In this document: positions 18,333 through 38,561 of the stretch, piece by piece | Layout: every line of letters starts with the position of its first letter | Numbering within the stretch: the first letter of the stretch is position 1 | Sequence record: PX393109.1 | Length of the DNA stretch: 64,000 nucleotides | Source of the DNA: a phage | Reading direction: 5' to 3' (one strand) | Made by a program: the position numbers and the translations under genes | The notes under the pieces: generated by a model | The model's input: the letters and a program-made list of their open reading frames with translations, nothing else | Database searches by the model: none | What the model was told of the DNA's origin: nothing

Positions 18333-18887
18333 ATGAGTAGTAATCGTAATGTAGTGGAAGAGACTCTGGACTTAATCAACAATCTCTTCCGCAGTAAATT
18401 AAGTGGTGATCTCAATGCTATGGAGTTCACCATGAGCCGTAAAGAAGTAGCAGACATCCTCAATCACGTGAAGATGTCTATCACGAATAACTGCGTCGCT
18501 ATTCCTGATGGTCTGCATCCTGATACTCGTGAGTTGGTTCTGGACTTCGCTGGGAAGATGGCTAAGAAGTTACATAAAGCCCAGGTTAAGTATGGATTCA
18601 CCAACGGATGGCGTCATCCTAACTGGGATACGGCTAAGGGTAATGATCAGTTCGAAGACCCTACCCAGTGCATCATCGCATTTAGCCACCATATCGATAA
18701 GGGTGATCCTGTCGACGTGGCTAACTACTGCGCATTCATGGATTGGCATGGATGGTCCGCTAAATATGTCCCTGCCCCACACACTGTCACCATCGACAAT
18801 AAGGGTATGGTAGGGTCCATTAAACCAGCAACCGAGCCTGGATATGGGACCGATTATGTTGGTAGCATAGGAGACATGCCTCAGTGA
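18333..18887 (+). CDS. hypothetical protein
   Basis: ATG (MSSNRNV) with SD AAGGAAG. Confidence 0.55.
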   Translation: MSSNRNVVEETLDLINNLFRSKLSGDLNAMEFTMSRKEVADILNHVKMSITNNCVAIPDGLHPDTRELVLDFAGKMAKKLHKAQVKYGFTNGWRHPNWDTAKGNDQFEDPTQCIIAFSHHIDKGDPVDVANYCAFMDWHGWSAKYVPAPHTVTIDNKGMVGSIKPATEPGYGTDYVGSIGDMPQ

Positions 18888-19111
18888 ATAAAATAATGAT
18901 GATGGGTATACTCGAAAATATTGTAACCCTTATCTGCATGACTGTTCTAGTATTGGGCCTTTATTATATGGGAGCATCATGGTGGTCGGCTATACCTGGG
19001 CTATTGGTATTCAATCTTAGTTCTGTTAAGTATAAGGAAACTAAGTCTGTTGGTCACCCAGAGAATACCACACCAACTGGGGAGGTTGCTGCTCCTCCTA
19101 AGGACAGATAA
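18884..19111 (+). CDS. small membrane protein
   Basis: Two hydrophobic segments. Confidence 0.5.
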   Translation: MNKIMMMGILENIVTLICMTVLVLGLYYMGASWWSAIPGLLVFNLSSVKYKETKSVGHPENTTPTGEVAAPPKDR

Positions 19112-21672: not shown

Positions 21673-21927
21673 ATGTACTTTACTGATAATATGATCGTAG
21701 GACTGATGATTGCTTATGTCATCGGTGGGATCATCGTTTATCCGATTGCTGCTTATGTTACTGGCAGATTCCGTATTAAGCATGGTGGCTACACAGTATT
21801 GGCTACGGTATTTTGGCCGTTAATCCCTTTCGTGATCGTGGCAGTTATCATAACTAAACTGGCCGAAATAGCTTGCACGAAAGGGTTCCACTACCTCCGC
21901 GATCTCGGTGAGAAACATGCCAATTAA
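21673..21927 (+). CDS. small membrane protein (2 TM)
   Basis: Hydrophobic segments MIVGLMIAYVIGGIIVYPIAAYV and VLATVFWPLIPFVIVAVII. Confidence 0.55.
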   Translation: MYFTDNMIVGLMIAYVIGGIIVYPIAAYVTGRFRIKHGGYTVLATVFWPLIPFVIVAVIITKLAEIACTKGFHYLRDLGEKHAN

Positions 21928-23846: not shown

Positions 23847-24560
23847 ATGTCTACTAAGATGATGCCACACCATCTGGCTCCGAATAAACTGTTTAACCGA
23901 TTCCTGTCATATCACGACTCCTACCACTGCGCAATTGACATCGAGACCGAGTATCTCGATTTTAAAGAGCCTGGGGTAGTTCTATCTGTAGGTATGGTGA
24001 CGGTTGGTCCTGATCACTACTCCCACGTCTACTTCACTATTGATCGAGAAGAGTCGCTGGCTCTGGGTATGAAGTCTGACCCTAACGTAGTTGAATGGCT
24101 CAACACTCTCCCGAAACCCGTCCGTGATGCTGCATATGCTAATCCAGTATCTGTTGACGAAGCTCTGGATATCATCGAAGAGTACGTAGCTAAGGTACTA
24201 CAGGATCCTGGTTGCCAGATGTTGAACTTCATCGGTAACGCACCAGAGTTCGACCAGGGATTCCTGGATTGGTACTTTAAGGCTAAAGGACGTAAGACCC
24301 CGTTCCTACACTGGATGAATCGAGATTACCGCACTCTGGCTAGTCTGCAGCTGATCTCATTCGATGATCGTCGCATGATTAAAGAAGAACTGAGTAGCCA
24401 GCACGAGTCTATGTCTGATCACCATGCATTGTTCGATGCGATGCTGGAAGCTAAGACTTGGGTTCGCACCATCAATCGTGTAAAAGAGTTACAGGATCTG
24501 GAGCACGAGGTGAATACCATGATTGCTATGCAGGGTAACTCTGTGGAAGATGGAGAGTAA
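23847..24560 (+). CDS. DEDD-type 3'-5' exonuclease (DnaQ-like)
   Basis: AIDIETE (Exo I) and HHALFDA (Exo III, DEDDh) motifs. Confidence 0.65.
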   Translation: MSTKMMPHHLAPNKLFNRFLSYHDSYHCAIDIETEYLDFKEPGVVLSVGMVTVGPDHYSHVYFTIDREESLALGMKSDPNVVEWLNTLPKPVRDAAYANPVSVDEALDIIEEYVAKVLQDPGCQMLNFIGNAPEFDQGFLDWYFKAKGRKTPFLHWMNRDYRTLASLQLISFDDRRMIKEELSSQHESMSDHHALFDAMLEAKTWVRTINRVKELQDLEHEVNTMIAMQGNSVEDGE

Positions 24561-24873
24561 GCTTTGTCGGGTGGTTAATATACGTACCAATCCTAACTAC
24601 GATTTATATGTTGGGAGAGGTACTATATTCGGGAATAAGTGGAGCCATAAAGATTTACCTAACGCTATTAACGTAGGTTCCCGAACATTAGCCATCGCGA
24701 AATACAGACTATGGTTCCACCAGCAAGTAAAAGATGGCCACATAAGCATCTCCTACTTACGGACTCTTAAGGGTAAGACTTTAGGGTGCTCCTGCTTACC
24801 GTTACCATGTCATGCTCAAGTTATAGCTGACTTCGTTAATTCATTACCTGACGAAGATTCCGCTCTTTCGTAG
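24550..24873 (+). CDS. DUF4326-like protein
   Basis: VNIRTNPNYDLYVGRG...GNKWS resembles the DUF4326 N-terminal signature; start overlaps exonuclease end. Confidence 0.45.
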   Translation: MESKLCRVVNIRTNPNYDLYVGRGTIFGNKWSHKDLPNAINVGSRTLAIAKYRLWFHQQVKDGHISISYLRTLKGKTLGCSCLPLPCHAQVIADFVNSLPDEDSALS

Positions 24874-24895
24874 CCTCCAAAGGCTGTTAAACTGT
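24860..24895 (+). promoter_or_regulatory. Conserved motif A copy (candidate phage promoter)
   Basis: ccgctctttcgtagcctccaaaggctgttaaactgt; the 5' half overlaps the stop of the upstream gene. Confidence 0.5.
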
Positions 24896-24911
24896 TGGAA
24901 AGGAAATCTCT

Positions 24912-25136
24912 ATGCAATCACGTCGTATTGGTTTGTTAAGCGGTATCGGTATGGTTCTGGCTGGATTAGGTCATATGTGGCCCACCCCAGCAGTGTCTGC
25001 TAAAGGCTATGACGGATTCCGTCGCGCCTGTACCAAGGTAAGCTGCCCTAAGACTACTACAGCATCTGCATTAAAGCGTGCGGCTAAGAAGGCTAAAGGC
25101 CGTAAGGTTAATAAGCAACGTCACAAGGGTAAATAA
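24912..25136 (+). CDS. small membrane protein with basic tail
   Basis: N-terminal hydrophobic segment; Lys/Arg-rich C-terminus. Confidence 0.5.
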   Translation: MQSRRIGLLSGIGMVLAGLGHMWPTPAVSAKGYDGFRRACTKVSCPKTTTASALKRAAKKAKGRKVNKQRHKGK

Positions 25137-25516
25137 TGTCTCATATGACCCGAGAAGAAATCGTATTGATGGTGGCTAAGGTGTGTCACGAAGCTAATCG
25201 TGCATACTGCCATTCTATCGGAGACTTCACCCAATTAAGCTGGGAAGCAACATCCGATGAAATAAAACAGTCGGCTATTGATGGAGCGTATAACTGCTTA
25301 CACAATAACCGTATCAGCCCAGAAGAGTCCCATGAATTCTGGGTTAAAACTAAAAAGGAGCAGGGCTGGAAGTATGGAGAAATCAAAGATCTCGCAGCTA
25401 AGACGCACCCGTGTATGGTTCCATATTCACGGTTGCCGGAAGAGCATCGAGTCAAAGATCACCTCTTCACCAGCATCTGCGCAGCATTCATTAAACAGTA
25501 CAAAAGGGCATCATGA
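25136..25516 (+). CDS. RyR-domain-like protein
   Basis: [20 protein letters not shown]...[20 protein letters not shown] resembles the bacterial/phage RyR-domain consensus. Confidence 0.45.
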
Positions 25517-25983
25517 TGACCGTAGTTCAAGTAAAGAAAACTATTAACTGGGACGACTCTCTGGAGTTACCGAAATACGCTAAAGCTGGTGATGCTGGTC
25601 TTGATCTTCGTGCGATGATTAAGACTGACGAAATCGATAAAATCGCTGTAAATCCTGGCGAAACTATCCTGGTCCCTACCGGTCTAGCGATCAACATCGG
25701 CGATCCGAACATCGCTTCTGTGATTCTTCCCCGCAGCGGCCTCGGCCATAAAAATGGCATCGTACTGGGTAACTTGGTTGGTCTTATCGACTCCGGCTAT
25801 CAAGGAGAACTGATGGTGTCTGTGTGGAACCGTAGTAACGAATCTTTCGTTATTAACCACGGCGACCGTATCGCTCAAATGGTGTTTCTTCCCGTTATCC
25901 ATCCAGAGCTCCAGCTTGTGGATAAATTCTCTGATGTTTCTGAACGTGGCGACGGTGGGTTTGGCCATTCCGGGATTAAGTAA
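25513..25983 (+). CDS. dut: dUTP diphosphatase (dUTPase)
   Basis: [44 protein letters not shown] and DRIAQMVF motifs. Confidence 0.9.
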
Positions 25984-26013
25984 TCCTGGGGTAGTTAGAC
26001 TACGGTAATTACT

Positions 26014-26039
26014 ATTGACCTCTTTGCGGAGAGGTCAAT
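26014..26039 (+). terminator. Hairpin / putative terminator after dut
   Basis: attgacctct-ttgcgg-agaggtcaat (10-bp stem), followed by a T-rich tract. Confidence 0.5.
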
Positions 26040-26065
26040 GTTATTCTACCATAGAACCGAGGAAT

Positions 26066-26269
26066 ATGATGGATATTGAGCAACTAACTAAGGATCTTAA
26101 TCGTAACCAGATTACGGTTATTCGTTCGGAGCACTTAGCTCCCAAGACTATGATCGTGTCTGATGATATCTGGGGCACATTCAAGAATAATAATAATAAT
26201 AATAATAATAATGCTACTGTAGAAGCTACAGATGAAGAATCTGTTAAGAACATGCTGGAGCATCCGTAA
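26066..26269 (+). CDS. hypothetical protein with poly-Asn tract
   Basis: Start MMDIEQ with SD GAGGA; contains the (AAT)9 repeat. Confidence 0.5.
   Translation: MMDIEQLTKDLNRNQITVIRSEHLAPKTMIVSDDIWGTFKNNNNNNNNNATVEATDEESVKNMLEHP
26185..26211 (+). repeat. (AAT)9 trinucleotide microsatellite
   Basis: aataataataataataataataataat, in frame, encoding N9. Confidence 0.9.
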
Positions 26270-26892
26270 TGATCCTTGGTAAATCTTATATTGAGCAGGC
26301 AATTACTCAAGGATTATGGACCTATCACAGTTATCTGGACAATCAGGAACCACGAATCGGACAGAATAGTGTAGATGTACGCTTAGCTCCGTTCTTCCTG
26401 GTTCCTCAAAAGATGCCTGATGGCCATGTAGTAGATCCCTATAAACCATGTACTCTTCCGGAGTATCGCGAGGTAGAGGCACTATACTACGATCTTAAAC
26501 CTGGGGAGTTCATCTTAGGCTCAGCATCTGAACGTATCGACTGTACTACCATGTTGCCTGAGAAGTGGTTCGAGCATTATGACCCACGATACCGTAACAG
26601 CACTGTAGACCGTGGTGTGGCATTCTGTCAGCATTACGACGGTCGCAGCACTATGGGTCGTCTGGGAATACTGAGCCATGTCAGTGCAGGTTTCGGGGAC
26701 TTTGGATTCAAGGGAGCATTTACTCTAGAGATTGTTAACCTAAGCCCTAACACTATCCGACTGCGTTCTAACATGCGCATCGGTCAGATTTACTTTACTG
26801 AGGTTGCTGGTGGTGGCTACGACCTTTACAAAGGTTACGACCAGACTGACTTTAAACCAGTCGCACCAATCATAGGTCGCGATCGTTTCTAA
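26269..26892 (+). CDS. dCTP deaminase-like protein (dUTPase-fold)
   Basis: VDVRL and DGRSTMGRLGI...LEIVN...IRL..NMRIGQIYF align with Dcd motifs. Confidence 0.6.
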   Translation: MILGKSYIEQAITQGLWTYHSYLDNQEPRIGQNSVDVRLAPFFLVPQKMPDGHVVDPYKPCTLPEYREVEALYYDLKPGEFILGSASERIDCTTMLPEKWFEHYDPRYRNSTVDRGVAFCQHYDGRSTMGRLGILSHVSAGFGDFGFKGAFTLEIVNLSPNTIRLRSNMRIGQIYFTEVAGGGYDLYKGYDQTDFKPVAPIIGRDRF

Positions 26893-26904
26893 TTAGGAGA
26901 AATT

Positions 26905-27282
26905 ATGTACAACGCATTCAACGGACCTCATCCAGAGGCTCTGCCGGTAATCGACGAAGCTAATCTGGTAAAGCGCTTCCGCGAGAGCTATGCTAGCCAG
27001 GTTGATTTAAAACAAATCATAGTTCTGGCATGTAATCAGCGTAAAGCTGCTATCCAGGATAAAATCGACCAGTTAAATAAGGCCAAAGTTCGTTTAATCG
27101 ACAGTCTGGCTGGTGAAGGTACTAAGTTGGGTGCGGCTGATATTAGCGACCAGGTCAGAGGCATGGTCGCAGATACCAATAATCTCCAATCGTTAATCAA
27201 AGAGATTGACGACTCGGTGAACATGGTATTCTCAGCTCTGGGTGGGCTACTGGAAGAGCCCACCACAGAGAAATCTCTGTAA
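26905..27282 (+). CDS. hypothetical protein
   Basis: ORF with SD AGGAGA. Confidence 0.55.
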   Translation: MYNAFNGPHPEALPVIDEANLVKRFRESYASQVDLKQIIVLACNQRKAAIQDKIDQLNKAKVRLIDSLAGEGTKLGAADISDQVRGMVADTNNLQSLIKEIDDSVNMVFSALGGLLEEPTTEKSL

Positions 27283-27313
27283 TCCGTCACGGATGATTAA
27301 TTTGGAATGAACT

Positions 27314-27676
27314 ATGACTTCTGCCGATTGCGTAGCTATGGTCGTCTACTATGAGGCCAGGGGAGAGTCGGAACGTGGGCAGTTAGCTGTAGCCCACGTG
27401 GTACTCAACCGAGCGAAGAAATACGGTATAAGCCCATGTAAGGTAGTTAAAAACAGGAATACCTTTCCGTGGTACCGTCACATCTCTTACCAGAATATGA
27501 AAGATCCTAAATCTAAGGCATCTGCTATTCATATTGCGGCAAGAGTTAAATACAGTGAAGATCCCACATTCGGGGCTACTCACTTTCATAATGTAAAGGT
27601 TAGGCCTAACTGGAAGGGCTATAGAATGACAGCCAGAATAGGCGACCACAAGTTCTATAAGAAGGTAAAGAAATGA
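27314..27676 (+). CDS. SleB/CwlJ-like cell wall hydrolase domain protein
   Basis: VAMVVYYEARGESERGQLAVAHVVLNR matches the Hydrolase_2 N-terminal signature; no signal peptide. Confidence 0.6.
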   Translation: MTSADCVAMVVYYEARGESERGQLAVAHVVLNRAKKYGISPCKVVKNRNTFPWYRHISYQNMKDPKSKASAIHIAARVKYSEDPTFGATHFHNVKVRPNWKGYRMTARIGDHKFYKKVKK

Positions 27677-28227
27677 CTTTGAGTAATATGGATATAGACA
27701 ACCTAATCGGTATGTTGGGAGGTACAGCAGTACTCGTTCTAACAGTCCGTCCTATCGACCAGGCTGAGAGCTATGATATAGTAGTCCGAGAGTCTAGCTT
27801 TGAATTCGAGCAAGCTCTTCGTCATGCTATGCACGATCTGACTATTACCAATAACGGTATTAAGCACCGTCTACTTAAAGTGTCGATAGGTATTAAATCG
27901 TCCGATGTATTCGCTAATCCTGATATCGTAAAGACCTGGGAAATCTGCGATAATCCACACACTCCTAAGATGAACGAAGCTATCGAGCGCGACCAGCAGT
28001 ATCAAGAAGTCGTTCATCAGGCGGTAGAGCTAGTATTTTTACTTAGCAACTGCCAGACTATTTATTCAGCGTATGAAGGCAAGGTCGATATGACTCAAGA
28101 GTCGGTTCGGGAGGCCGTTCGTGTATCTCTTTTCAATATCTTATCTGGTAAGTCAGAAACCAAGATGGATGCTGAAGTAGAGAAGGTAATTAAACCATTC
28201 CGGGAATTATTTGTACGGAGTATCTGA
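27673..28227 (+). CDS. hypothetical protein
   Basis: ORF. Confidence 0.55.
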   Translation: MTLSNMDIDNLIGMLGGTAVLVLTVRPIDQAESYDIVVRESSFEFEQALRHAMHDLTITNNGIKHRLLKVSIGIKSSDVFANPDIVKTWEICDNPHTPKMNEAIERDQQYQEVVHQAVELVFLLSNCQTIYSAYEGKVDMTQESVREAVRVSLFNILSGKSETKMDAEVEKVIKPFRELFVRSI

Positions 28228-28469
28228 TGGACTTGATGAAATTAAACATCAAACTAGAGGGAGTGTGTAAGGCAGGGATAGTGAAGGTATGCTATAACTG
28301 TAAAGAGCACCCCACTCTACGTCTTGACGAGAATAACCACTTACATCTGGAGTGTCCTAACTGTAAATGGGACGACCATGAAGTGGTTACTGATTTAGAT
28401 ATGGAAGATGAAGCAGTTGCTGATCGTGAGCTGGGGCTTATGGTCGAGATGTGGAATCGTCATAACTAA
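28227..28469 (+). CDS. zinc-ribbon protein
   Basis: CYNCKEH...CPNCKW. Confidence 0.5.
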   Translation: MDLMKLNIKLEGVCKAGIVKVCYNCKEHPTLRLDENNHLHLECPNCKWDDHEVVTDLDMEDEAVADRELGLMVEMWNRHN

Positions 28470-28484
28470 ATTAATCTACACAAA

Positions 28485-28519
28485 AATGGGACTCACTCTA
28501 TCACGAGTGAGTCCCATTT
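28485..28519. terminator. Bidirectional rho-independent terminator at the strand convergence point
   Basis: aaatgggactcact-ctatcacg-agtgagtcccattt (14-bp stem) flanked by A-run and T-run. Confidence 0.8.
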
Positions 28520-28521
28520 AT

Positions 28522-28854
28522 TTAGTGCTTAAAGATGCCGATGATGGCGTCGTTAAACAATCCTACCAGTACACTAATAATTGCTAACGCACCACTCCAG
28601 AATTTAATCTTGTCATTTACTTCCTTAATCTCCTTCCTTAGATCATCCTGCTCATCTTCAAGGTCAGAAATCTTCTTAGACATGAAATTCTGTGCAACGA
28701 CTAGCTCACGGATATCCGCTAATATCTCCGTCTGCTTACGAGAAGACTCCATAAGTTGATCAAGGATTACTCCCTGAAACTTCTGGTTAGATTCAAGTCT
28801 CGCTAGCCTATCGAGTTGGTGTCCACCGAACTCAGACTCTTCCCTCTCGCGCAT
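28522..28854 (-). CDS. coiled-coil protein with C-terminal TM (lysis-associated?)
   Basis: Charged helical region followed by GALAIISVLVGLFNDAIIGIF; last gene of the - strand array. Confidence 0.5.
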   Translation of the reverse strand: MREREESEFGGHQLDRLARLESNQKFQGVILDQLMESSRKQTEILADIRELVVAQNFMSKKISDLEDEQDDLRKEIKEVNDKIKFWSGALAIISVLVGLFNDAIIGIFKH

Positions 28855-28864
28855 ACAAGATTCC

Positions 28865-29074
28865 TCACTTCTGATTGCTCTCTAGGCAATCTATATAAGA
28901 TACCAATTTAGCTAATTCAGCGTTAGGAATCCTGATCCCGTCTTTTTCCGCTATCGCTGCTATCGGTGGACGGTCGCACCTTACCTTCGGCGTCTGCATC
29001 TGTACCGGTAGGCTGTTGCAGCTTACCAAACTTAGACTCCCAAGCACCAGTAGGGTCATTTTTAATTTCTTCAT
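28865..29074 (-). CDS. o-spanin-like outer-membrane lipoprotein
   Basis: Signal plus lipobox LSLVSC; short Pro/Cys-containing mature part; located after the endolysin. Confidence 0.55.
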   Translation of the reverse strand: MKKLKMTLLVLGSLSLVSCNSLPVQMQTPKVRCDRPPIAAIAEKDGIRIPNAELAKLVSYIDCLESNQK

Positions 29075-29153
29075 CTTTCTTCTCCCGAGAGCGAGTCTGC
29101 ATAGCAGATACGAGTAGGGTAATAAGCTGAAGAATAAGAGTAAGAGCTTTCAT
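28923..29153 (-). CDS. possible i-spanin-like ORF overlapping the o-spanin in another frame
   Basis: N-terminal TM ALTLILQLITLLVSAM; atypically short, no clear coiled coil. Confidence 0.25.
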   Translation of the reverse strand: MKALTLILQLITLLVSAMQTRSREKKDEEIKNDPTGAWESKFGKLQQPTGTDADAEGKVRPSTDSSDSGKRRDQDS

Positions 29154-29156
29154 ACC

Positions 29157-29573
29157 TTACTCCTTTTTACCCTCTGGATTTTTGATCAGAGACTTACCGT
29201 AATCAAGGGCATCAATAGCCTGGGTAGCCTTACTCACTAGGTGCGGATCATCCTGAGTTTGGACTACGTCGGAAAGAACCTGCTTAGCTTTATCCATGGT
29301 CTGCACTTTCTGCTCATCCTGAGCGGCAGCTTTCTTATCTACCCTGGCAGCTGATTTAGGCAAGTTCAGAGCGACGAAGTTTAAGATGGACGATGCATAA
29401 CCGAGGTATTTCTTAATTACCCCAATGTATTCGTCGTCTTTAGTATTAGGAGTGATCTTAGCGATCTTCTCCAGAGCTTGCACCAGCACTGATGCGAAGC
29501 CGATGATGGCTAGTGCAAGAGCGATGTAATCATCGATCTTGGATCCATCAAGTACATCCAGGATATTGTCCAT
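29157..29573 (-). CDS. membrane protein, holin or i-spanin candidate
   Basis: TM YIALALAIIGFASVLVQAL followed by a charged helical C-terminal domain; immediately downstream of the endolysin. Confidence 0.5.
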   Translation of the reverse strand: MDNILDVLDGSKIDDYIALALAIIGFASVLVQALEKIAKITPNTKDDEYIGVIKKYLGYASSILNFVALNLPKSAARVDKKAAAQDEQKVQTMDKAKQVLSDVVQTQDDPHLVSKATQAIDALDYGKSLIKNPEGKKE

Positions 29574-29587
29574 TATTGATCACCATA

Positions 29588-30235
29588 TTAAAGAGTTAAA
29601 GTCTGATTTGCTCTGCGTAGTACAGGCAGTCGGTCAGGTACGGTCGCAGCAGACCCATTTATCTTCTGGGTTACTTTGGTGAATGCGTCCTGATCTGCTA
29701 ATTGATTTAATTTATTTTTATCCCAGAACCACCCTGCAGTAAGCATGATCGTTTCGAAATCCGTCTCTACTAACTCTGGATCTTCTACCAAACGGTCATC
29801 GCCAAAGATACTCAAAGAGGCCTCTCGATAGTTAGCTTTGCCAGTTAGATGCATAGCTCCACGGCCAATGTACTTATACCCATCTCCGCTAGCTGGAGTT
29901 CCGTTACCCATGCGATTAGCATACACCTGATTGGCTAACTTCTCAGGGTCGCGTATGTAAGCATTAGCATTAAGCTTACCAGGTTCACCGCGAAGAGTAA
30001 ATCTACTCGGCCACACAGCTACCAGACGAGACGCAGAGGTATAATACAGGGACTCCACAAACTTAGTGTAGTCCCGAGTTTCAAAGGCAGTCTGCGCCAT
30101 AAAATAGCGCAGACGACGATTGGTATTGATACCGTAACGCTCGATAGTAGTATTAATGGCGGGTAGCAGCTTTTCCAGCACTTCCGTTGAAGTTGTCGGG
30201 AGGAACTTCTTCAGCTGGTCAAGTGTAACGCTCAT
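29588..30235 (-). CDS. endolysin, glycoside hydrolase family 19-like
   Basis: YFMAQTAFET...DGYKYIGRGAMHLTGKANY matches GH19 endolysin motifs. Confidence 0.8.
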   Translation of the reverse strand: MSVTLDQLKKFLPTTSTEVLEKLLPAINTTIERYGINTNRRLRYFMAQTAFETRDYTKFVESLYYTSASRLVAVWPSRFTLRGEPGKLNANAYIRDPEKLANQVYANRMGNGTPASGDGYKYIGRGAMHLTGKANYREASLSIFGDDRLVEDPELVETDFETIMLTAGWFWDKNKLNQLADQDAFTKVTQKINGSAATVPDRLPVLRRANQTLTL

Positions 30236-30259
30236 ATTATACCCCTACCTAGTTAAGGC

Positions 30260-30436
30260 TCACTTCTGAGCCTGTTTTCTCTGGAGAGCCACCTGTAGTG
30301 ACTCTATTTCGACCCATCCCTGGCCATCGAATCTCCATCTTTTACCCTGCAAAGACTGGAAGATTGAGTTTACCGGCGCTACTGCCGGTATTTCTGTTTC
30401 GAATCCAGTCTTGAACCATGGTTCGTTGCTAGACAT
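30260..30436 (-). CDS. small hypothetical protein (58 aa)
   Basis: ATG with SD AAGGAG between the tail fibre gene and endolysin; no TM. Confidence 0.3.
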   Translation of the reverse strand: MSSNEPWFKTGFETEIPAVAPVNSIFQSLQGKRWRFDGQGWVEIESLQVALQRKQAQK

Positions 30437-30445
30437 GTTTACTCC

Positions 30446-33400
30446 TTAACTAAAGTATGCGCGAACGTTCTTAACGAACGGACGGTTAACTGGGTTGGAT
30501 AGAGACAGGGTGATACGGATGCGGGTATTAGCCACATTTACTCCTGACAGTTTGTAAGGTACAGTGTACCACCCATCTCCCAGAGCGGTTCCGGTACTCC
30601 CTGACAAGGCTACCCATTCGCTATCCTTCTGGTACTGAACGGTTACGCTAGCACCAGATGGTACATACTGATCCAGGATGACGTTAAGAGTTACCGGAGT
30701 AATGTTACCGTTAGGGATACTGAACTGACGCTGGGTATATACCCCAGGAGTATCAGTAGTACCAGAACGGAAGATGACGCCACCGAAGACCTTCGGAGAT
30801 ACGGTAGGATCACCGGTATTAAACTCAGCCATCAGACTGAAAGTACCAGAGAAGTTCTCAGTATACGTTTCAGAGTTAACGTTGAGGTTAATGTTATCAG
30901 TACCGTTAGTGAGATAGAATCTCACGGAGGTATTTGCCGGAGTCTCAATATCAGCAGTAAGCGAAAGACTGTTGGTATTGCTAGCTACCGTTACAGAACC
31001 CAAGTTAACAGTGCGAGTAGAACTATAGTCAGCAGCATGGAGACGATACACCAAGTCTTCATCCTGAACTGGAGACCAGGTAGATTCGTTCGCAGAAGTC
31101 AGAAGAACACCCTGAGCTGGCTGATTCACTACATACTGCTGCTTATCGGGATCATATCCGTTTATCTTAGCTGTGGCTACCTTACCCTGATAGTTAGCCG
31201 TAGCAACTATGATGGCATACTCAGTACCACCAGTCACTGTTACTGGATAACGAAGATTGATCTTGTTCCACCCCAGTACACACTTATTAGCCGGAACTTC
31301 ACCGAAGCCATAAAGCTGAGTGGAGTTAGGGATACCTACCAAAGTAGGGACCAGTTTAATCTGGAGTGTGTTAGTAGGCAGCTCAGTCAGATAGATAGAT
31401 ACTGCGTTAATATCACGAGTAGCCTGGATAGTGAAGGTCTGAGCCACTGGATCGTAACCCCACGGAACAGCACCACCAGTCCAGTTCTGACCGTAGTCGA
31501 CTTTACCAGAGTTGTAGATGGTTACGGTACCGCGAGTAATAGCCTTAGTGGTCTTACCAGTAGCAACATACTGATACGTACCGTTAACCAAACCACCAGA
31601 CAGCATATGAGCATACTGTACAGCACCGTTATCATCCGCAGTCAAGGTAACCACTGGCAGGTTACGGAAAGTAAGATCAATCTGTTCGTTGGCAGCATAC
31701 CCAGATAGCTTAATCGTGATCGTAGTATCTACCGGCAGAAAGCCACCATGGAAGTACGACCAGAAGCTACGAGTATCGATCTTAGCTGGTGAAACAGAGA
31801 TCATCGCCTGAGGTACCTGACCAGACCCAGCATACGGGTTGATGCGGGTGTCCTTAGTACGGAATTCCTGAGACTGAATTACGGTATCAGTGAATGATAA
31901 CATAATACCATCAGGAGCCAGACTGGACTGCCGTGAGAAAGATGCTCCGATGAACAGCTGACCATCATCGATAATGGCGTTGTTGGTTAATCCAGCATCA
32001 CGCATGTTACCGTTAAGCAGGGAGTCAACTACTACACCTTTCTTAGTCGTAGTCGGATCGGTAGAGCGAGTTTCATCACGGAGCGAAAGCTGGGCGATGT
32101 TGTACTGCATGTCGCTTACCAGAGACATCAGATCTTTTAGCTCATTATAAGTAACCACTTCGATGCGGTCATTGTTAATGACCGGATCTTGACCCTTAGT
32201 CAGACGAACAGTTGCGATAGACAGCAACGTAGCTGAAGTACCTGGTAACTGAGCGTTTGCCAAGATTGCCGGAATACCCTTAGTGATCTGAACCGCACCA
32301 GAGGCATCGATAGATACACGGTCATAGCGAGACAGGAAGTAAGAGTAGGTTACGTAGAACGTAGACCCAGATACCAGAGCATCACTGGTGGAAATAGTTA
32401 TGGAGGTATCGTTCCAGGTCGGGATGAACTGATCAATGTACTGATACGTAACCTGGTAAGTAGAACCAGGAGATGGTTCGTTACCAGTAGGTGACCAGTC
32501 TACAGAGTCCCCGTTCTGTACATAGTCACTACCTTTAACATAGACAGTACCACCCTGCTGTACAGAAATAATCTGCAGAACAGGAGTATCCGGAAGTAAG
32601 TCAGACGAACCCGTTGCGGAACCATGAGTCACCGTACGAGTCACCTGCTTAGTACCGGATACAGCAGTTACCTGATCAATTACAGAGTAGCGCAGTTGAT
32701 AGGTGTAAGTACCTGCTGTAAACACGTATGGCTCTGAAGCTACGTTACCAGTATCGTTGATAGGGTCCAGACGCACGGTACTTTCATAGGCGAACAGTGC
32801 TTCGTTTCCGAGTACACGAGCCTTGCCCGCAGACATGTTCAACATAATCTGCTGGGTAGAGCCATCGATGCCTGCATAGGACAGAGTTAATCCGTCCAGA
32901 ACATAGTTACCGTGAGTATCAGAATCGTAGCGACCAAGAAGACCAGAGAACTGGTCGAGATCATTACGAGACTTGGTGGTCTTAACCAGTACGCCATTCT
33001 TGAAATAGAATACTGGGAAGAAGGTATCTCCTTCTGGAACATCATCGGCCAACAGCCAAGTAGTTACCTTCTGGAGACGGTCAGCACCAGCTGAACCATA
33101 GCTCGGAGAGTTCTGATACTGCATGAGGAGCTCAGGATCTTCGAGATAGGTGATTACCTTATCAGAGATAGATACACCTAAAACAGCCTCACCAGCAGTA
33201 GGAAACGATGCATCCGTAACAGCAGGTACATTCATAGCCATACCGGCATAGATTAGCGTACCTTCGGTTATAGAGATTACACCGTCTCCAAGAGCGGAAA
33301 TATCCGCCCCATCAGTAATGGCACCATCACCGACCAAGAAGCCGGACAGTGTAGAGACGTTATTGAGCTGCTGATCCTGAATTTCGTTTAGCTCCGAGCT

Positions 33401-33490
33401 CTGGAGCGGCCTGTCCGCGATAAACAGATGCTTGGCGTAGTTCTTCTTAGCCGCAAATCTGTTAAAGTAATCAGACGGTAAAGTTGCCAT
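30446..33490 (-). CDS. large tail fibre / tailspike protein (1014 aa)
   Basis: Ser/Thr/Gly-rich beta-type composition; sits in the receptor-binding-protein locus. Confidence 0.6.
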   Translation of the reverse strand: MATLPSDYFNRFAAKKNYAKHLFIADRPLQSSELNEIQDQQLNNVSTLSGFLVGDGAITDGADISALGDGVISITEGTLIYAGMAMNVPAVTDASFPTAGEAVLGVSISDKVITYLEDPELLMQYQNSPSYGSAGADRLQKVTTWLLADDVPEGDTFFPVFYFKNGVLVKTTKSRNDLDQFSGLLGRYDSDTHGNYVLDGLTLSYAGIDGSTQQIMLNMSAGKARVLGNEALFAYESTVRLDPINDTGNVASEPYVFTAGTYTYQLRYSVIDQVTAVSGTKQVTRTVTHGSATGSSDLLPDTPVLQIISVQQGGTVYVKGSDYVQNGDSVDWSPTGNEPSPGSTYQVTYQYIDQFIPTWNDTSITISTSDALVSGSTFYVTYSYFLSRYDRVSIDASGAVQITKGIPAILANAQLPGTSATLLSIATVRLTKGQDPVINNDRIEVVTYNELKDLMSLVSDMQYNIAQLSLRDETRSTDPTTTKKGVVVDSLLNGNMRDAGLTNNAIIDDGQLFIGASFSRQSSLAPDGIMLSFTDTVIQSQEFRTKDTRINPYAGSGQVPQAMISVSPAKIDTRSFWSYFHGGFLPVDTTITIKLSGYAANEQIDLTFRNLPVVTLTADDNGAVQYAHMLSGGLVNGTYQYVATGKTTKAITRGTVTIYNSGKVDYGQNWTGGAVPWGYDPVAQTFTIQATRDINAVSIYLTELPTNTLQIKLVPTLVGIPNSTQLYGFGEVPANKCVLGWNKINLRYPVTVTGGTEYAIIVATANYQGKVATAKINGYDPDKQQYVVNQPAQGVLLTSANESTWSPVQDEDLVYRLHAADYSSTRTVNLGSVTVASNTNSLSLTADIETPANTSVRFYLTNGTDNINLNVNSETYTENFSGTFSLMAEFNTGDPTVSPKVFGGVIFRSGTTDTPGVYTQRQFSIPNGNITPVTLNVILDQYVPSGASVTVQYQKDSEWVALSGSTGTALGDGWYTVPYKLSGVNVANTRIRITLSLSNPVNRPFVKNVRAYFS

Positions 33491-33501
33491 TTATTACTCC
33501 A

Positions 33502-34323
33502 TTAGAACGTGAGGATGACAGAATGACCTTCGCGGGTAGTGGACTCACGAATAATTAGGGTGTGGTTCTCGATCCCGAGCATCTCTCCCTTGTCCTTAAT
33601 CATGTCTGGGGTTAGGTAAAGAGAATTCTCATTACCACTCGTGGGTACAGTTCCGATGAAGATAGCGAACTGATAGATCATGTCATCCGCAGCATCAGTA
33701 TAGTTAAACTGAACATGCAGATACAGATGCTTAGTTGGCTTATCGGAGATAGACCACTTCCCTTCTGACGTTTCGATGGTACCGTTAGGATCCGGTTTCA
33801 CATATTCCTTGGTGAGGATCTTACGACGTCCGACTTCAGCATACAGATCAGGCAGCGTCGGGTCCGGATTAGGTGCAGGTTTAGTCCATGCAGACGGGAA
33901 TGTAGTGTTCGTCGTAGGAGGATTAACCTTGCTATCTGGAGTAGTGCTACCATTGTCAGTAAAGCTATTGGAAGTAGACTCACCAATTTTATCATAGGAG
34001 TTGGCACCCTGGCGATAGATGATGTATTTCTCAGCATTCGCAGATGCACCCCAGTTTAACTGAATAGACTGCTGAGAAGCCGAAGCAACGATAGTAGCAG
34101 TGGCTGCCATGGAGGCAGTAGTTTCACCGAATTTGTTAGCTGCAGTAACCACATAGGTATACGTGGCGGGATTTAGAGTACCCCCATCTACCGCGGAGGC
34201 AGACAGGGTTTCTGGAGCAGCTACAGCATCAGGGATGGTACCCCATGCAAAGTGCAGAGTCGCATCATGCACTGTTTTAGCTAAAGCGATGTGGCCACTT
34301 TCGGCCAATACCATAAAGGACAT
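33502..34323 (-). CDS. structural protein with FN3/Ig-like domain
   Basis: YTYVVTAANKFGETTAS...NAEKYIIYRQ resembles a fibronectin type III repeat. Confidence 0.5.
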   Translation of the reverse strand: MSFMVLAESGHIALAKTVHDATLHFAWGTIPDAVAAPETLSASAVDGGTLNPATYTYVVTAANKFGETTASMAATATIVASASQQSIQLNWGASANAEKYIIYRQGANSYDKIGESTSNSFTDNGSTTPDSKVNPPTTNTTFPSAWTKPAPNPDPTLPDLYAEVGRRKILTKEYVKPDPNGTIETSEGKWSISDKPTKHLYLHVQFNYTDAADDMIYQFAIFIGTVPTSGNENSLYLTPDMIKDKGEMLGIENHTLIIRESTTREGHSVILTF

Positions 34324-34339
34324 AGTAGTCTCCGTTTAA

Positions 34340-35794
34340 TTAACTTGCCCAGGTACCCTGAACAGTATCCATCTCCCAGTAACCGGAGATAGCACAAACT
34401 AAGCGTAACCAGGATCCCTTATCCGAGTTGGAAATAGTGGCTTTCCCATTACGGAAGAGATCTGTACCACCAGTTTTTACTGATACGCTGTAGTTGGCAC
34501 CTACAAGAACATCATAGGTCATACCAGGAACAGCGACTGGCAGGGTAACGGTAACAGCAGAAGTGGCACCATCGGTAGTGCAGATAGCACCGGTATCAGC
34601 TGCGGTAAGAGTTACATTAGCTGTAGACGTGATGATCTTCTTAAGAGCACCAGTCATTACACCATCTACTATCTTGATGGTATCCTTACCATTCTGGGTC
34701 AGGACTACTGATCCATCGCCTTTATGGGTTACCTTAGAAGTAAGAGTAGGTCCGTGATAGTAGGTATGAATGATATCATAGCCAGTATTCACTGCATCGT
34801 ATCGAAGAATATGATCCTCTGATGCTCTCTTACCGAAGTGGTAATCGACACCTTCAACTATGGTATCTCGGTTCCATGCGTGAGTCTGGGAAGAGGCTAC
34901 CACACGATAACGAGATTCAGCTCCGCGAAGAACATGCCAGTCACGGTTAGAGTCATCGCTCATACCCGATTCCCAGATCTTAGTTCCGCTTACGCTGTAA
35001 GATACCTTAGCTCTGGCTAACCCGTTATTACTGTTAAGGTTAAGGTTAGCGTTGGACGCAGACGAGATAATTAAACCATCAGTAGAATTACTGATGAATC
35101 TCACTGCAGCCGTCCATGAACTACCGTCCCATCCAGACATATCCAGAATCTGGACACCAGGCTTGATGGTTAAATTAGCGAGGGTATACTTAACACCAGG
35201 GTCGATTATAGCCAGACCAGTGGTGATAGTGGTAAGCATATCCTGAACCTGGCCAGTAGAGTCGGTGAGTTTATCAGGAACAGCACCGAATTCAGTAGCT
35301 CGAAATTCTTTGCTACGACGGACTCTTACCCAACCATTCACTACGTCTTTACTATCAGATGCTATGGAGTCGTTTTCTGTTTTAACTCTGAACTCACCAC
35401 CACCAGGGGTACCCTCCCCGAAGTAGCCTTTCACTATCACTCTGTCCCCATCTTTAGGAGTGATAGTTTTCAGATCTTCTACAGAGTTTACCTGACCAAT
35501 GTAGCGCCAGGAAGTAGAAGACCCGAACATTGAAATAATGAAGTCTACTGCATTAGTCTGGGCGAAGATCTCGTATCCAGCTTTAAGAGTAGTTTGTTCG
35601 GCATCGGCATACGGAGTTTCACCGTCGGTGGTGTGGGGGATATCCCCCACCCACTTAACCAACACCTTCTTACCATCAGTGCGCACAAATCTGAGAATGC
35701 AGTGGTTACCGTTTAGATAGATACCAGCCGCATAGTCACCTTTGTACTTAAGGCTGCTTAACTGCAGACTATCTGGCAATTGGGTGGACATCAA
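34340..35794 (-). CDS. tail fibre / tailspike protein (484 aa)
   Basis: In the receptor-binding locus; Gly/Ser/Thr-rich. Confidence 0.55.
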   Translation of the reverse strand: MMSTQLPDSLQLSSLKYKGDYAAGIYLNGNHCILRFVRTDGKKVLVKWVGDIPHTTDGETPYADAEQTTLKAGYEIFAQTNAVDFIISMFGSSTSWRYIGQVNSVEDLKTITPKDGDRVIVKGYFGEGTPGGGEFRVKTENDSIASDSKDVVNGWVRVRRSKEFRATEFGAVPDKLTDSTGQVQDMLTTITTGLAIIDPGVKYTLANLTIKPGVQILDMSGWDGSSWTAAVRFISNSTDGLIISSASNANLNLNSNNGLARAKVSYSVSGTKIWESGMSDDSNRDWHVLRGAESRYRVVASSQTHAWNRDTIVEGVDYHFGKRASEDHILRYDAVNTGYDIIHTYYHGPTLTSKVTHKGDGSVVLTQNGKDTIKIVDGVMTGALKKIITSTANVTLTAADTGAICTTDGATSAVTVTLPVAVPGMTYDVLVGANYSVSVKTGGTDLFRNGKATISNSDKGSWLRLVCAISGYWEMDTVQGTWAS

Positions 35795-38437: not shown

Positions 38438-38561
38438 TGGTGATCTCCATAAAAATATTACATGATGTACAAATACTTAGTAACTTTAGGGTAGTGATTA
38501 GTTTAAGTTAAATCTTAAATTGAAGCCTCTCCCTTCTACTACCTACGGTAAAAGTCTTTAT

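What the first reader, a model, noticed from the sequence alone, without database searches (positions are those of the whole stretch)
28522..30436. Lysis cassette with lipoprotein o-spanin in an overlapped arrangement and no obvious canonical holin
After the GH19 endolysin come a 138-aa single-TM protein, then a lipobox (LVSC) o-spanin whose ORF overlaps, out of frame, a 76-aa TM ORF, then a 110-aa coiled-coil protein with a C-terminal TM. Which of these is holin, i-spanin or antiholin is ambiguous. The tail-anchored coiled-coil protein is atypical for spanins.
Basis: partly seen in the sequence, partly recalled or inferred. Interest (0 to 1): 0.4.

Follow-up and report, generated by a model that had tools for sequence, protein, structure and literature searches.

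The report
Phage lysis cassette lacking a canonical holin
This is the cell-bursting gene set of an E. coli phage: the wall-cutting enzyme and the two-part outer-membrane breaker are ordinary, but no standard pore-forming gene is present, and two unusual small membrane proteins are the best candidates for that job.

Summary
On the minus strand, after the tail fibre, one late operon encodes:
- a conserved 58-aa soluble protein;
- a soluble GH19 endolysin;
- A (138 aa, one N-terminal TM);
- B (76 aa, N-terminal TM);
- C (69 aa, lipobox LVSC), in the +1 frame of B with a 152-nt overlap;
- D (110 aa, one long helix ending in a TM);
- a strong terminator hairpin.

Comparative data settle the spanin question. 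A-B-C is a conserved three-gene module placed right after the endolysin in Aeromonas, Vibrio, Shewanella and Zobellviridae phages. C belongs to o-spanin families. B is its cognate compact i-spanin without a coiled coil, and it is real: it keeps its DPxxxFxxxF motif where the two genes do not overlap.

A belongs to phrog_9685, a family of unknown function. It is not an i-spanin. In most relatives it sits alongside a recognised holin, which this lineage lacks.

D has no homologue among 1.84 billion cluster representatives. It is under purifying selection and resembles XhlA/SPP1 gp24.1 in architecture only.

My best reading is that B/C form an ordinary overlapped spanin and that A and/or D supply the holin function. 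Only experiments can test the holin part. Interest is moderate.

The parts
30260..30436 (-). 58-aa soluble ORF between the tail fibre and the endolysin; a conserved gene of unknown function and the first gene in the interval
   Evidence: It has no TM and no family hit. It is conserved in EP_H11 and L008 with dN/dS of about 0.07-0.10.
29588..30235 (-). Soluble GH19 endolysin (215 aa)
   Evidence: phrog_181 endolysin 8e-60. Pfam PF00182 scores 33.8 bits, above the 25.5 cut-off. 567 phage records hold homologues. It has no hydrophobic N-terminal segment, so it needs a hole-forming holin.
29157..29573 (-). Protein A (138 aa): a bitopic membrane protein of family phrog_9685 with a TPNTKDD motif and a lineage-specific 60-aa helical C-terminal extension. 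It is the best holin or holin-component candidate.
   Evidence: phrog_9685 2e-16. Homologues occur in 118 phage records and 188 proteins, all annotated hypothetical. The invariant residues are G25, S28, A38, T41, P42, D46, D47, L64, A68, N70, A76 and R77. Across the family the N-tail has 0-2 K/R (none in the 18 short members) and the C-terminal part has 7-10, which predicts N-out/C-in. The gene always sits immediately upstream of a spanin pair. Predicted helices are 13-40, 44-69, 80-106 and 110-131, in a low-confidence model.
28923..29153 (-). Protein B (76 aa): a compact i-spanin with an N-terminal TM, a short charged helix, a DPTGAWESKFG motif and a disordered tail
   Evidence: AAGGAG lies 6 nt upstream of the ATG, which comes 3 nt after the stop codon of A. 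Homologues at the same position in Aeromonas and Vibrio phages belong to phrog_9219 and phrog_24944. The motif is retained in Vibrio phi 2 and PVP-XSN, where B and C do not overlap. The N-tail carries K/R, as expected for a type II anchor.
28865..29074 (-). Protein C (69 aa): outer-membrane lipoprotein o-spanin, in the +1 frame of B with a 152-nt overlap
   Evidence: It has lipobox LVSC with Asn at +2. It matches phrog_3198 Rz-like spanin at 6e-4. Relatives match phrog_8971, phrog_456 and phrog_1275 Rz-like spanins, as strongly as 3e-31. The C-terminal motif L..YI..LE is shared across the family, and periplasmic Cys33 and Cys63 are present. 'Synonymous' divergence in the overlap is only 0.15-0.2, against 0.6-0.8 in neighbouring genes.
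28522..28854 (-). Protein D (110 aa): an orphan tail-anchored coiled-coil protein. It is a candidate holin subunit or lysis regulator with XhlA-like architecture.
   Evidence: AlphaFold2 predicts a single helix over residues 2-109, pLDDT 89. The TM spans ~85-108 and only KH follows it. A heptad register runs from ~13 to 86 and continues into the TM, with Gln at alternate 'a' positions. Purifying selection is strong: pS 0.80 and pN 0.11 against L008. No homologue was found outside the lineage. hhalign against the XhlA family gives a probability of 6.8%.
28484..28519 (.). Bidirectional intrinsic terminator hairpin that closes the late operon and the convergent plus-strand operon
   Evidence: A 15-bp stem with dG -30.3 kcal/mol, z-score -7.7, and 0 of 200 shuffles as stable. 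A U-run follows on the minus-strand transcript.

Best explanation
The interval is the last part of the late operon of an IME392-like E. coli myophage and forms its lysis cassette.

Shown by the data:
- a cytoplasmic, signal-less GH19 endolysin;
- an overlapped two-component spanin. B is a compact i-spanin without a coiled coil, anchored in the inner membrane. [quoted passage not shown]
- a terminator.

Inferred: B and C bind through their conserved C-proximal motifs, DPxxxFxxxFG in B and L..YI..LE in C. After the peptidoglycan is degraded they destroy the outer membrane.

Inferred, and the least certain step: the hole that lets the soluble endolysin out is made by the two unconventional membrane proteins of the cassette.
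- A is a phrog_9685 protein, predicted N-out/C-in. Its conserved TPxxxDD domain and a lineage-specific helical extension would lie in the cytoplasm.
- D is tail-anchored, with an ~85-residue cytoplasmic coiled coil running straight into its C-terminal TM.

I propose that A and D act together as a two-component holin. This would be analogous to, but not homologous with, XhlB/XhlA of PBSX and gp26/gp24.1 of SPP1. In those systems a partner with a C-terminal TM and a coiled coil is needed alongside a conventional holin.

Approximate probabilities:
- B/C are the spanin pair: 0.85.
- A takes part in hole formation or its timing: 0.6.
- D takes part: 0.45.
For: Spanin pair:
- C has a canonical lipobox and matches Rz-like spanin PHROGs directly or through its family.
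- B starts 3 nt after the stop of A and has a strong Shine-Dalgarno sequence.
- The arrangement 'A, then a type II TM protein, then a lipoprotein' recurs wherever an A gene could be read: 34 of the 35 comparison loci outside this lineage (29 IMG/VR, 6 GenBank). The following gene is present in 33 of those 34 and a lipobox ORF was called in 29; the gaps are loci cut at a contig end, plus two phi 2-type loci where the script missed the lipoprotein. The pair is overlapped in most and separated in the phi 2/PVP-XSN group.
- B keeps its motif where there is no overlap.
- The overlap region evolves 3-5 times more slowly at 'synonymous' sites than the flanking genes.
- The combined periplasmic length is about 107 aa. 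Published spanin pairs range from 62 to 300, and more than 120 i-spanins in that survey lack a coiled coil (PMC6139136).

Holin:
- The endolysin has no export signal.
- No holin-family match exists in the cassette.
- No multi-TM holin-like late gene exists in the window or the rest of the genome.
- The syntenic Acinetobacter phage Ab1-TPeters carries a 141-aa holin-like gene with 3-4 TMs next to the same tail protein, and that gene has no homologue here.
- Relatives that carry A also carry a recognised holin upstream of the endolysin: phrog_785 4.5e-29, phrog_175 6e-6, phrog_14453 9e-4.
- The three lineages without one each carry a protein with one TM plus a coiled coil in the late operon: D here, a 106-aa protein in Shewanella 1/4, and ORF50 in KZY1.
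- The C-terminal extension of A and protein D occur only in this lineage. In all four members whose cassette could be read through, both are present; the fifth (L009) has the extension but its contig ends at the D position, where the source called a partial gene I did not compare with D.
- D is strongly constrained and is the last cistron before the terminator.
- A holin component with a C-terminal TM is an established concept. XhlA and gp24.1 are each harmless alone and lethal together with the 2-TM partner (PMC6316719; PMC5589764).
Against: - No experiment exists for any of these proteins.
- A coexists with a recognised holin in Aeromonas and Vibrio phages. There it is an accessory protein, an antiholin or a second holin rather than the holin. 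Its strong sequence conservation is unusual for holins.
- D shows no detectable homology to XhlA or to anything else. The weak PHROG 'hemolysin' hit (0.006) and the DUF2951 hit (0.048) are at the level expected from coiled-coil composition.
- The co-occurrence of the A extension with D reflects a single lineage and therefore a single evolutionary event.
- Two small 2-TM ORFs in the early region, 18884-19111 and 21673-21927, have a holin-like layout and cannot be excluded.
- The topologies are inferred from charge bias only.
- The model of A has low confidence, pLDDT 58.
Confidence: 0.55

Rival explanations
1. A alone is the holin: a single-TM holin with a charged C-terminal tail. D does not take part in hole formation. 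D could be an antiholin or timing regulator, a superinfection-exclusion protein, or another membrane moron that happens to be the last late gene.
For: - A has the generic holin layout and lies next to the endolysin.
- In the Zobellviridae phage KZY1 the cassette is tail fibre, endolysin, A, i-spanin, o-spanin, terminase. A is the only other membrane protein in it.
- D is absent from all other phages that carry A.
Against: - A coexists with recognised holins in three other lineages.
- KZY1 and Shewanella 1/4 also carry a protein with one TM plus a coiled coil.
- The strong constraint on D and its position inside the cassette argue for a lysis role.
Confidence: 0.22
2. The real holin is encoded elsewhere in the genome, for example by one of the small 2-TM ORFs on the plus strand (18884-19111 or 21673-21927). 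In this reading A is a conserved lysis accessory, as in its relatives, and D is unrelated or regulatory.
For: - Both ORFs have two TMs and a charged C-terminus, and both are conserved in IME392 and EP_H11.
- Large phages often scatter their lysis genes (PMC6139136).
- In SPP1 a holin component is transcribed early.
- A is not the only holin-like protein in its relatives.
Against: - Neither ORF matches a holin family. The only matches are weak ones to PHROGs of unknown function.
- Both lie in the early/middle plus-strand block with nucleotide-metabolism genes, not in the late operon.
- Early regions of phage genomes are rich in small membrane proteins with other roles.
Confidence: 0.18
3. The 138-aa protein A is the i-spanin, and the 76-aa ORF is an untranslated by-product of the overlap. 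A variant is that D is the inner-membrane partner of the lipoprotein.
For: - A has an N-terminal TM and a long helical C-terminal part.
- D is a long coiled coil, like the periplasmic domain of Rz.
Against: - B has a strong Shine-Dalgarno sequence and is conserved as a family, with its own motif, even where it does not overlap C.
- The short A homologues (64-80 aa) end about 40 residues after the TM and are followed by a separate i-spanin in other phages; in Shewanella 1/4 that gene is annotated 'Rz-like spanin'.
- The charge bias of A predicts N-out/C-in.
- The 84-residue N-terminal domain of D carries 15 K/R and no signal peptide, so it should stay in the cytoplasm.
- D is absent from every other phage that has this spanin family.
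Confidence: 0.04

Closest known systems
Overlapped two-component spanins (P2 LysB/LysC type; classification of Summer 2007 and Kongari 2018, PMC6139136)
   Same: - An inner-membrane protein with an N-terminal TM is followed by an outer-membrane lipoprotein. The lipoprotein gene starts inside the first gene in the +1 frame and runs past its end.
- The pair is the distal part of a lysis cassette.
- The o-spanin has periplasmic cysteines.
- The combined periplasmic length lies within the published range.
   Different: - The i-spanin is very short, with about 57 periplasmic residues and no predicted coiled coil. It consists of a short charged helix, a DPxxxFxxxFG motif and a disordered tail.
- Its PHROG families (9219, 24944, 21600) carry no spanin annotation.
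- In distant relatives the N-terminal anchor is weakly hydrophobic and contains an acidic residue.
XhlA of B. subtilis PBSX and gp24.1 of SPP1 (Pfam PF10779), the C-terminal-TM component of a two-component holin
   Same: - Protein D has the same architecture: an N-terminal coiled coil of 60-85 residues running into a single C-terminal TM with a tail of a few residues.
- It is encoded in the lysis cassette next to another small membrane protein.
   Different: - There is no detectable homology. Pfam gives no hit, and hhalign gives a probability of 6.8%.
- The host is Gram-negative.
- The putative partner A has one TM, not the two of XhlB and gp26.
- D lies after the spanins, not next to the endolysin.
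P2 lysis cassette Y-K-lysA-lysB-lysC (gene order recalled from the literature, not tested here)
   Same: In relatives of this cassette the order is holin, endolysin, small membrane protein A, i-spanin, overlapped o-spanin. That puts A in the position of LysA, the lysis-timing protein.
   Different: - LysA is a protein with about four TMs and is unrelated in sequence.
- In the window the upstream holin is missing, and an extra gene, D, follows the spanins.
phrog_9685 family (function unknown)
   Same: Residues 16-76 of A match the profile at 2e-16 and share all the invariant residues. The gene position, immediately before the spanins, is the same.
   Different: Members are 64-91 aa long. Only the E. 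coli phage lineage has a 137-142-aa form, with a two-helix C-terminal extension.

Membership tests
Two-component spanin, o-spanin subunit (protein C) | Signal peptidase II signal with a lipobox ending in Cys, and no Asp at +2 (outer-membrane sorting) | tested here: met
   The N-terminus reads MKKLKMTLLVLGSLSLVS-C-N. NCBIfam and Pfam lipoprotein-signal hits on residues 1-21 agree in kind.
Two-component spanin, o-spanin subunit (protein C) | Sequence membership in a recognised o-spanin family | tested here: met
   phrog_3198 Rz-like spanin at 6e-4 directly. Homologues aligned with C match phrog_8971 at 3e-31, phrog_456 at 4e-5 and phrog_1275 at 0.011.
Two-component spanin, i-spanin subunit (protein B) | N-terminal TM domain anchoring a periplasmic C-terminal domain (type II topology) | tested here: inconclusive
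   A hydrophobic segment spans residues 3-19 (17-residue window, Kyte-Doolittle mean 1.9) and Lys is at position 2. Orientation was not tested. In distant homologues the segment is weaker and contains D or E.
Two-component spanin (pair) | The o-spanin gene is embedded in, overlapping, or immediately next to the i-spanin gene, within a lysis cassette | tested here: met
   The overlap is 152 nt in the +1 frame. The start lies at 0.34 of the length of B and the gene extends 58 nt beyond the stop of B. The pair lies two genes after the endolysin. The same pairing is seen in relatives.
Two-component spanin (pair) | Periplasmic domains long enough to bridge the envelope; periplasmic Cys for intermolecular disulfides | tested here: met
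   About 57 plus 50 residues, against a published range of 62-300. C has Cys33 and Cys63. B has none.
Two-component spanin (pair) | Physical B-C complex, and requirement for outer-membrane disruption (complementation of lambda Rz/Rz1) | not testable with these tools
   This needs genetics or biochemistry.
Two-component spanin, i-spanin subunit (protein B) | Coiled-coil periplasmic helices (typical of Rz, but not obligatory) | tested here: not met
   After residue ~33 the sequence is rich in P, G, S, T and D. Only a short charged helix follows the TM. More than 120 published i-spanins also lack a predicted coiled coil.
Holin (functional class), proteins A and D | Small membrane protein with at least one TM and a charged hydrophilic terminus, encoded next to the endolysin | tested here: met
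   A has a TM at 17-35 and a highly charged C-terminal part, and lies directly downstream of the endolysin. D has a TM at 85-108 and a charged N-terminal domain, and is the last cassette gene.
Holin (functional class), proteins A and D | Homology to a described holin family | tested here: not met
   Pfam, PHROGs and NCBIfam give no holin hit for A, B, D or the 58-aa ORF.
Holin (functional class), proteins A and D | Lethal, timed permeabilisation of the inner membrane that releases endolysin | not testable with these tools
   This requires inducible expression and complementation of lambda S-am.
XhlA (PF10779), protein D | Match to the family profile | tested here: not met
   No PF10779 hit at E <= 0.1, whereas SPP1 gp24.1 scores 1.2e-14. 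hhalign of the D alignment against 52 XhlA-family sequences gives probability 6.8%.
XhlA (PF10779), protein D | Architecture: N-terminal coiled coil, a single C-terminal TM, and a lysis-cassette location | tested here: met
   The description of gp24.1 and XhlA comes from PMC6316719.
phrog_9685, protein A | Profile match, shared invariant motif (G..S, TPxxxDD, A.N, AR), and position before the spanin genes | tested here: met
   2e-16 over profile positions 7-71 of 73. Invariant columns are and synteny.
GH19 endolysin | Pfam Glyco_hydro_19 score above the gathering threshold; membership in a phage endolysin family | tested here: met
   33.8 bits against 25.5. phrog_181 gives 8e-60. The catalytic residues were not checked individually.

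The most novel reading that the evidence does not exclude
A and D together form a previously undescribed two-component holin of a Gram-negative phage. A is a member of the widespread uncharacterised phrog_9685 family and has acquired a cytoplasmic helical extension. D is an orphan tail-anchored protein whose long cytoplasmic coiled coil, with Gln at alternate core positions, runs directly into its TM.

Zippering of the cytoplasmic helices would set the timing of hole formation.

More broadly, phrog_9685 would be a conserved, unrecognised lysis factor. It is translationally coupled to the spanin genes in more than 100 Vibrio, Aeromonas, Shewanella and E. coli phages and prophages.
Probability: 0.3. 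Interest if true: 0.6.

Novelty: new variant of a known kind. Interest (0 to 1): 0.4.

Why it matters
Holins are the least predictable phage lysis proteins. Tail-anchored holin components are so far known only from Gram-positive phages (XhlA, gp24.1).

If A and/or D make the hole here, that would add a new holin architecture for Gram-negative hosts. It would also give a function to phrog_9685, a family present in well over a hundred phages and many Aeromonas prophages.

The practical gains are more modest and more solid:
- The B family (phrog_9219, 24944, 21600) can be annotated as a compact i-spanin without a coiled coil.
- Several unannotated o-spanins can be called, including one in Shewanella phage 1/4, which was previously listed as lacking spanins.
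- Lysis-gene annotation of the IME392/EP_H11 group can be corrected.

Tried and rejected
- D homology searches: tblastn against phages, a word-indexed search of 5.8 billion proteins and a full HMMER profile search of 1.84 billion representatives. They returned only D's own lineage and one spurious 623-aa coiled-coil protein. The weak Vibrio 1.123.O hit (25% identity, E 0.03) is not in a lysis cassette.
- D against XhlA: hhalign probability 6.8%, so homology is rejected.
- Pfam, NCBIfam and PHROG scans of A, B, D and the 58-aa ORF gave no functional family. The coiled-coil hits of D (SPAM, Seryl_tRNA_N and others) are compositional.
- The A family search returned 188 proteins, and none of the 120 listed carries a functional name. 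A second search seeded with the Zobellviridae homologue added nothing.
- The AlphaFold2 model of A is too uncertain (pLDDT 58) to support a fold search. Only its secondary structure was used. A fold search of D was not run because a single long helix carries no information.
- Holin hunt across the genome: the window and the rest of the IME392 genome. Stretches of roughly 15.0-17.6 kb and 67.2-72 kb of IME392 were aligned to the two ends of the window. About 2.2 kb (IME392 65.0-67.2 kb, mostly two large annotated genes) was not scanned for TM ORFs. This found only early-region orphans without holin matches.
- The consensus terminator scan missed the operon-end hairpin. I suspect this is because its stem absorbs part of the T-run, but I did not check that. 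Folding confirmed the hairpin.
- Literature searches for IME392, ARM81mr, and tail-anchored holins found no functional work on these proteins.
Full report
**What is there**

Between the 1014-aa DUF4815 tail protein (30446-33490) and a hairpin at 28484-28519, the minus strand carries six tightly packed ORFs:
- a 58-aa ORF, 30260-30436;
- a 215-aa ORF, 29588-30235;
- A, 138 aa, 29157-29573;
- B, 76 aa, 28923-29153;
- C, 69 aa, 28865-29074;
- D, 110 aa, 28522-28854.

The 215-aa protein is a GH19 endolysin. Pfam PF00182 scores 33.8 bits against a 25.5 cut-off, phrog_181 gives 8e-60, and 567 phage records hold homologues. It has no hydrophobic N-terminal segment. It is therefore a soluble enzyme that needs a hole-forming holin.

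A has one strong TM at about residues 17-35. B has an N-terminal TM. C has a signal peptide ending in lipobox LVSC, with Asn at +2. D has its only TM at about 85-108, followed by just 'KH'.

C starts 79 nt into B, in the +1 frame, and the overlap is 152 nt. All four small genes have Shine-Dalgarno sequences 6-7 nt upstream of their ATG. The ATG of B lies 3 nt after the stop of A.

The hairpin has dG -30.3 kcal/mol and z = -7.7, and a U-run follows it. It closes this operon and the convergent plus-strand operon.

**Origin**

The region is 98% identical to Escherichia phage vB_EcoM_IME392 and 94% identical to EP_H11. These are the only close relatives among 50,697 phage records. In IME392, B, C and D are not annotated; in EP_H11, C is not annotated and B and D are 'hypothetical protein'.

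Two metagenomic contigs, L008 and L009, give more divergent copies with the same gene order.

One alignment places window 24382-34500 on IME392 98.5-108.7 kb. Two more place the ends of the window at about 15.0-17.6 kb and 67.2-72 kb of IME392. If the two genomes are collinear in between, which I did not check, the window corresponds to about 67.2-116.5 kb plus 1-17.6 kb of that genome.

The group has been cited among phages with a YerA41-like DNA polymerase and thymidine-hypermodification genes (PMC12686479).

**All six ORFs are genes**

Against L008, synonymous divergence is 0.6-0.8 in the 58-aa ORF, the endolysin, A and D. Non-synonymous divergence is 0.07-0.21.

In the B/C overlap, 'synonymous' divergence in either frame is only 0.15-0.2. 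That is the pattern expected when both frames are constrained.

**The A-B-C module**

tblastn with A finds 118 phage records. A profile search finds 188 proteins, mostly from Aeromonas prophages and Vibrio phages. None of the 120 listed carries a functional name.

The same order recurs in the loci where an A gene could be read:
- Aeromonas phiARM81mr and 26 of 27 related IMG/VR contigs (no A gene could be called in L034);
- Vibrio 252E42.2;
- Vibrio phi 2 and PVP-XSN;
- IMG/VR contig L014;
- Shewanella 1/4;
- the Zobellviridae phage KZY1.

In each, the A homologue (64-80 aa) is followed by a short protein with an N-terminal hydrophobic helix, with the stop and start codons abutting or overlapping. 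A lipobox lipoprotein follows. It is usually overlapped, but separated in phi 2 and PVP-XSN. The exceptions are loci cut by a contig end.

The lipoproteins match Rz-like spanin PHROGs, as strongly as 3e-31 for phrog_8971. They share the C-terminal motif L..YI..LE with C.

The B-type proteins belong to phrog_9219 and phrog_24944, with 21600 for Vibrio 252E42.2. None of these has an annotated function. By a manual seven-sequence alignment they share DPxxxFxxxF(G/N) with B; B itself matches no PHROG at E 0.01. The motif persists in phi 2 and PVP-XSN, where no gene overlaps it. It is therefore not a by-product of encoding the signal peptide of C.

B/C are therefore a cognate i-spanin/o-spanin pair in the overlapped architecture. 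The combined periplasmic length of about 107 residues and the missing coiled coil both fall within published diversity: 62-300 residues, and more than 120 i-spanins without a predicted coiled coil (PMC6139136).

**What A is**

A matches phrog_9685 at 2e-16. The family is unusually well conserved. Its invariant residues are G25, S28, A38, T41, P42, D46, D47, L64, A68, N70, A76 and R77.

The N-tail has no Lys or Arg in 18 of 18 short members, while the 45 residues after the TM have 7-10. By the positive-inside rule this predicts N-out/C-in, which leaves no periplasmic domain. A is therefore not an i-spanin.

A goes with two unrelated i-spanin types: the B type, and the helical type of Shewanella 1/4 and KZY1. 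In three lineages it also goes with three different recognised holin families upstream of the endolysin: phrog_785 at 4.5e-29, phrog_175 at 6e-6 and phrog_14453 at 9e-4.

A is therefore a self-contained lysis-cassette component. It could be a second holin, an antiholin or a timing factor. Its position corresponds to that of LysA in P2. That comparison is recalled from the literature and was not tested here.

Only the E. coli lineage has a long form of 137-142 aa. The extension is predicted to be two helices, in a low-confidence model.

**What D is**

D has no homologue outside the lineage in any search, including a full HMMER profile search of 1.84 billion representatives.

AlphaFold2 predicts one continuous helix over residues 2-109, with pLDDT 89.

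A heptad register runs from about residue 13 to 86 and straight into the TM. Gln occupies alternate 'a' positions: 13, 27, 41, 55 and 69.

The 84-residue N-terminal domain carries 15 Lys/Arg and no signal sequence, so it should remain cytoplasmic. D is therefore tail-anchored and cannot be a spanin subunit.

The architecture matches XhlA of PBSX and gp24.1 of SPP1. These are holin components with a C-terminal TM, harmless alone and lethal together with the 2-TM partner XhlB or gp26 (PMC6316719; PMC5589764). Homology is not supported: Pfam gives no PF10779 hit, and hhalign gives 6.8%.

**Where is the holin?**

No cassette protein matches a holin family.

Scans of the window and of most of the remaining genome found no multi-TM holin-like late gene. 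They found only lineage-specific small TM ORFs in the early plus-strand block, at 16086-16295, 16890-17234, 18884-19111 and 21673-21927. None of these has a holin match.

The closest structural relative outside the lineage is Acinetobacter phage Ab1-TPeters, whose tail protein is 41% identical. It is syntenic at this locus and carries a 141-aa holin-like gene with 3-4 TMs right after the tail protein. It has no A-D genes. Its holin-like gene has no homologue here.

Three A-containing lineages lack a recognised holin, and each carries a protein with one TM plus a coiled coil in the late operon: D here, a 106-aa protein after the spanins in Shewanella 1/4, and ORF50 in KZY1.

The extension of A and protein D occur only in this lineage. 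Both are present in all four members whose cassette could be read through; in the fifth (L009) the contig ends at the D position.

From this I infer that A and/or D provide the holin function, most likely together. This is inference from gene content and architecture, not from any functional data.

**Rivals**

- A alone is the holin and D is a regulator or an unrelated membrane protein: probability about 0.22.
- The holin is one of the early 2-TM orphans: about 0.18.
- A or D is the i-spanin and B is not translated: about 0.04. The conservation of B, its ribosome-binding site and the predicted topologies contradict this reading.

**Comparison and novelty**

The endolysin and the spanin pair are ordinary members of known kinds. 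The B family had not been recognised as i-spanins in PHROGs.

The unconventional part is the holin side: a conserved but uncharacterised family (A), an orphan tail-anchored coiled-coil protein (D), and no canonical holin.

I rate this a new variant of a known kind of system, with moderate interest (0.4).

The most novel reading the evidence does not exclude is a two-component, XhlA-like holin in a Gram-negative phage. It would also assign a function to phrog_9685. I give it about 0.3 probability, and it would deserve about 0.6 interest if true.

Noticed in passing
window 30260-30436 (-): A conserved 58-aa soluble ORF lies between the tail fibre and the endolysin. Its dN/dS is about 0.07-0.10 and it matches no family. 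It occupies the slot where the syntenic Acinetobacter phage Ab1-TPeters has a holin-like gene with 3-4 TMs.
   Followed up: partly
window 27314-27676 (+): A 120-aa SleB-like cell-wall hydrolase (phrog_938 endolysin, 1e-22) lies on the opposite strand about 0.8 kb beyond the terminator. This makes a second peptidoglycan hydrolase near the cassette; its L008 orthologue carries Pfam Hydrolase_2. Ab1-TPeters has a gene annotated 'endolysin' next to its dCTP deaminase in a similar position, but I did not compare the two sequences.
   Followed up: partly
window 28522-28854 (-), protein D: The coiled-coil core has Gln at every second 'a' position (Q13, Q27, Q41, Q55, Q69), giving a strict 14-residue period. 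An invariant Asn101-Asp102 pair sits inside the TM segment.
   Followed up: no
window 16086-16295 and 16246-16464 (+): This is another overlapping pair of small ORFs: a 69-aa protein with an N-terminal TM plus coiled coil, and a 72-aa protein with a cleavable-looking signal peptide but no lipobox. It looks superficially like a spanin pair but lies in the early region.
   Followed up: no
window 18884-19111 and 21673-21927 (+): Two lineage-specific small 2-TM ORFs (75 and 84 aa) have charged C-termini. Their layout is holin-like, they sit in the early/middle gene block, and they have no homologues outside IME392 and EP_H11.
   Followed up: partly
L012 3147-3477 (Shewanella phage 1/4): This phage was listed as lacking spanins in Kongari et al. 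2018. It in fact has an overlapped pair: a 68-aa i-spanin annotated 'Rz-like spanin' and an unannotated 70-aa lipoprotein with lipobox LGTGC. The pair lies directly after an A homologue.
   Followed up: partly
L003 2818-3036, L006 2762-2983, L013 2201-2428, L014 4241-4459: Overlapped o-spanin genes are present in Aeromonas phiARM81mr, Vibrio 252E42.2 and Zobellviridae KZY1 but are not annotated in those GenBank records. An IMG/VR contig (L014, no annotation available) carries one too.
   Followed up: yes
L010 22578-23960 (IME392 37577-38959, outside the window): The phage genome encodes a 460-aa transporter with about 11 TMs, annotated as BCCT family. This is an unusual auxiliary gene for a phage.
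   Followed up: no
L010 1458-6419 (IME392 16.4-21.4 kb, outside the window): Separate beta-like and beta'-like RNA polymerase subunit genes are annotated. The genome also has dCTP deaminase, dUTPase and thymidylate synthase genes. This fits the group's reported link to YerA41-like phages with hypermodified thymidine (PMC12686479).
   Followed up: no
B-family N-termini (L003 2727-, L004 2671-, L006 2677-, L014 4189-): In distant homologues the i-spanin 'TM' is only about 14-16 residues long and carries an acidic residue at its centre (D9, E10, E12, E9), on a narrow polar face. This is odd for a stable membrane anchor.
   Followed up: no
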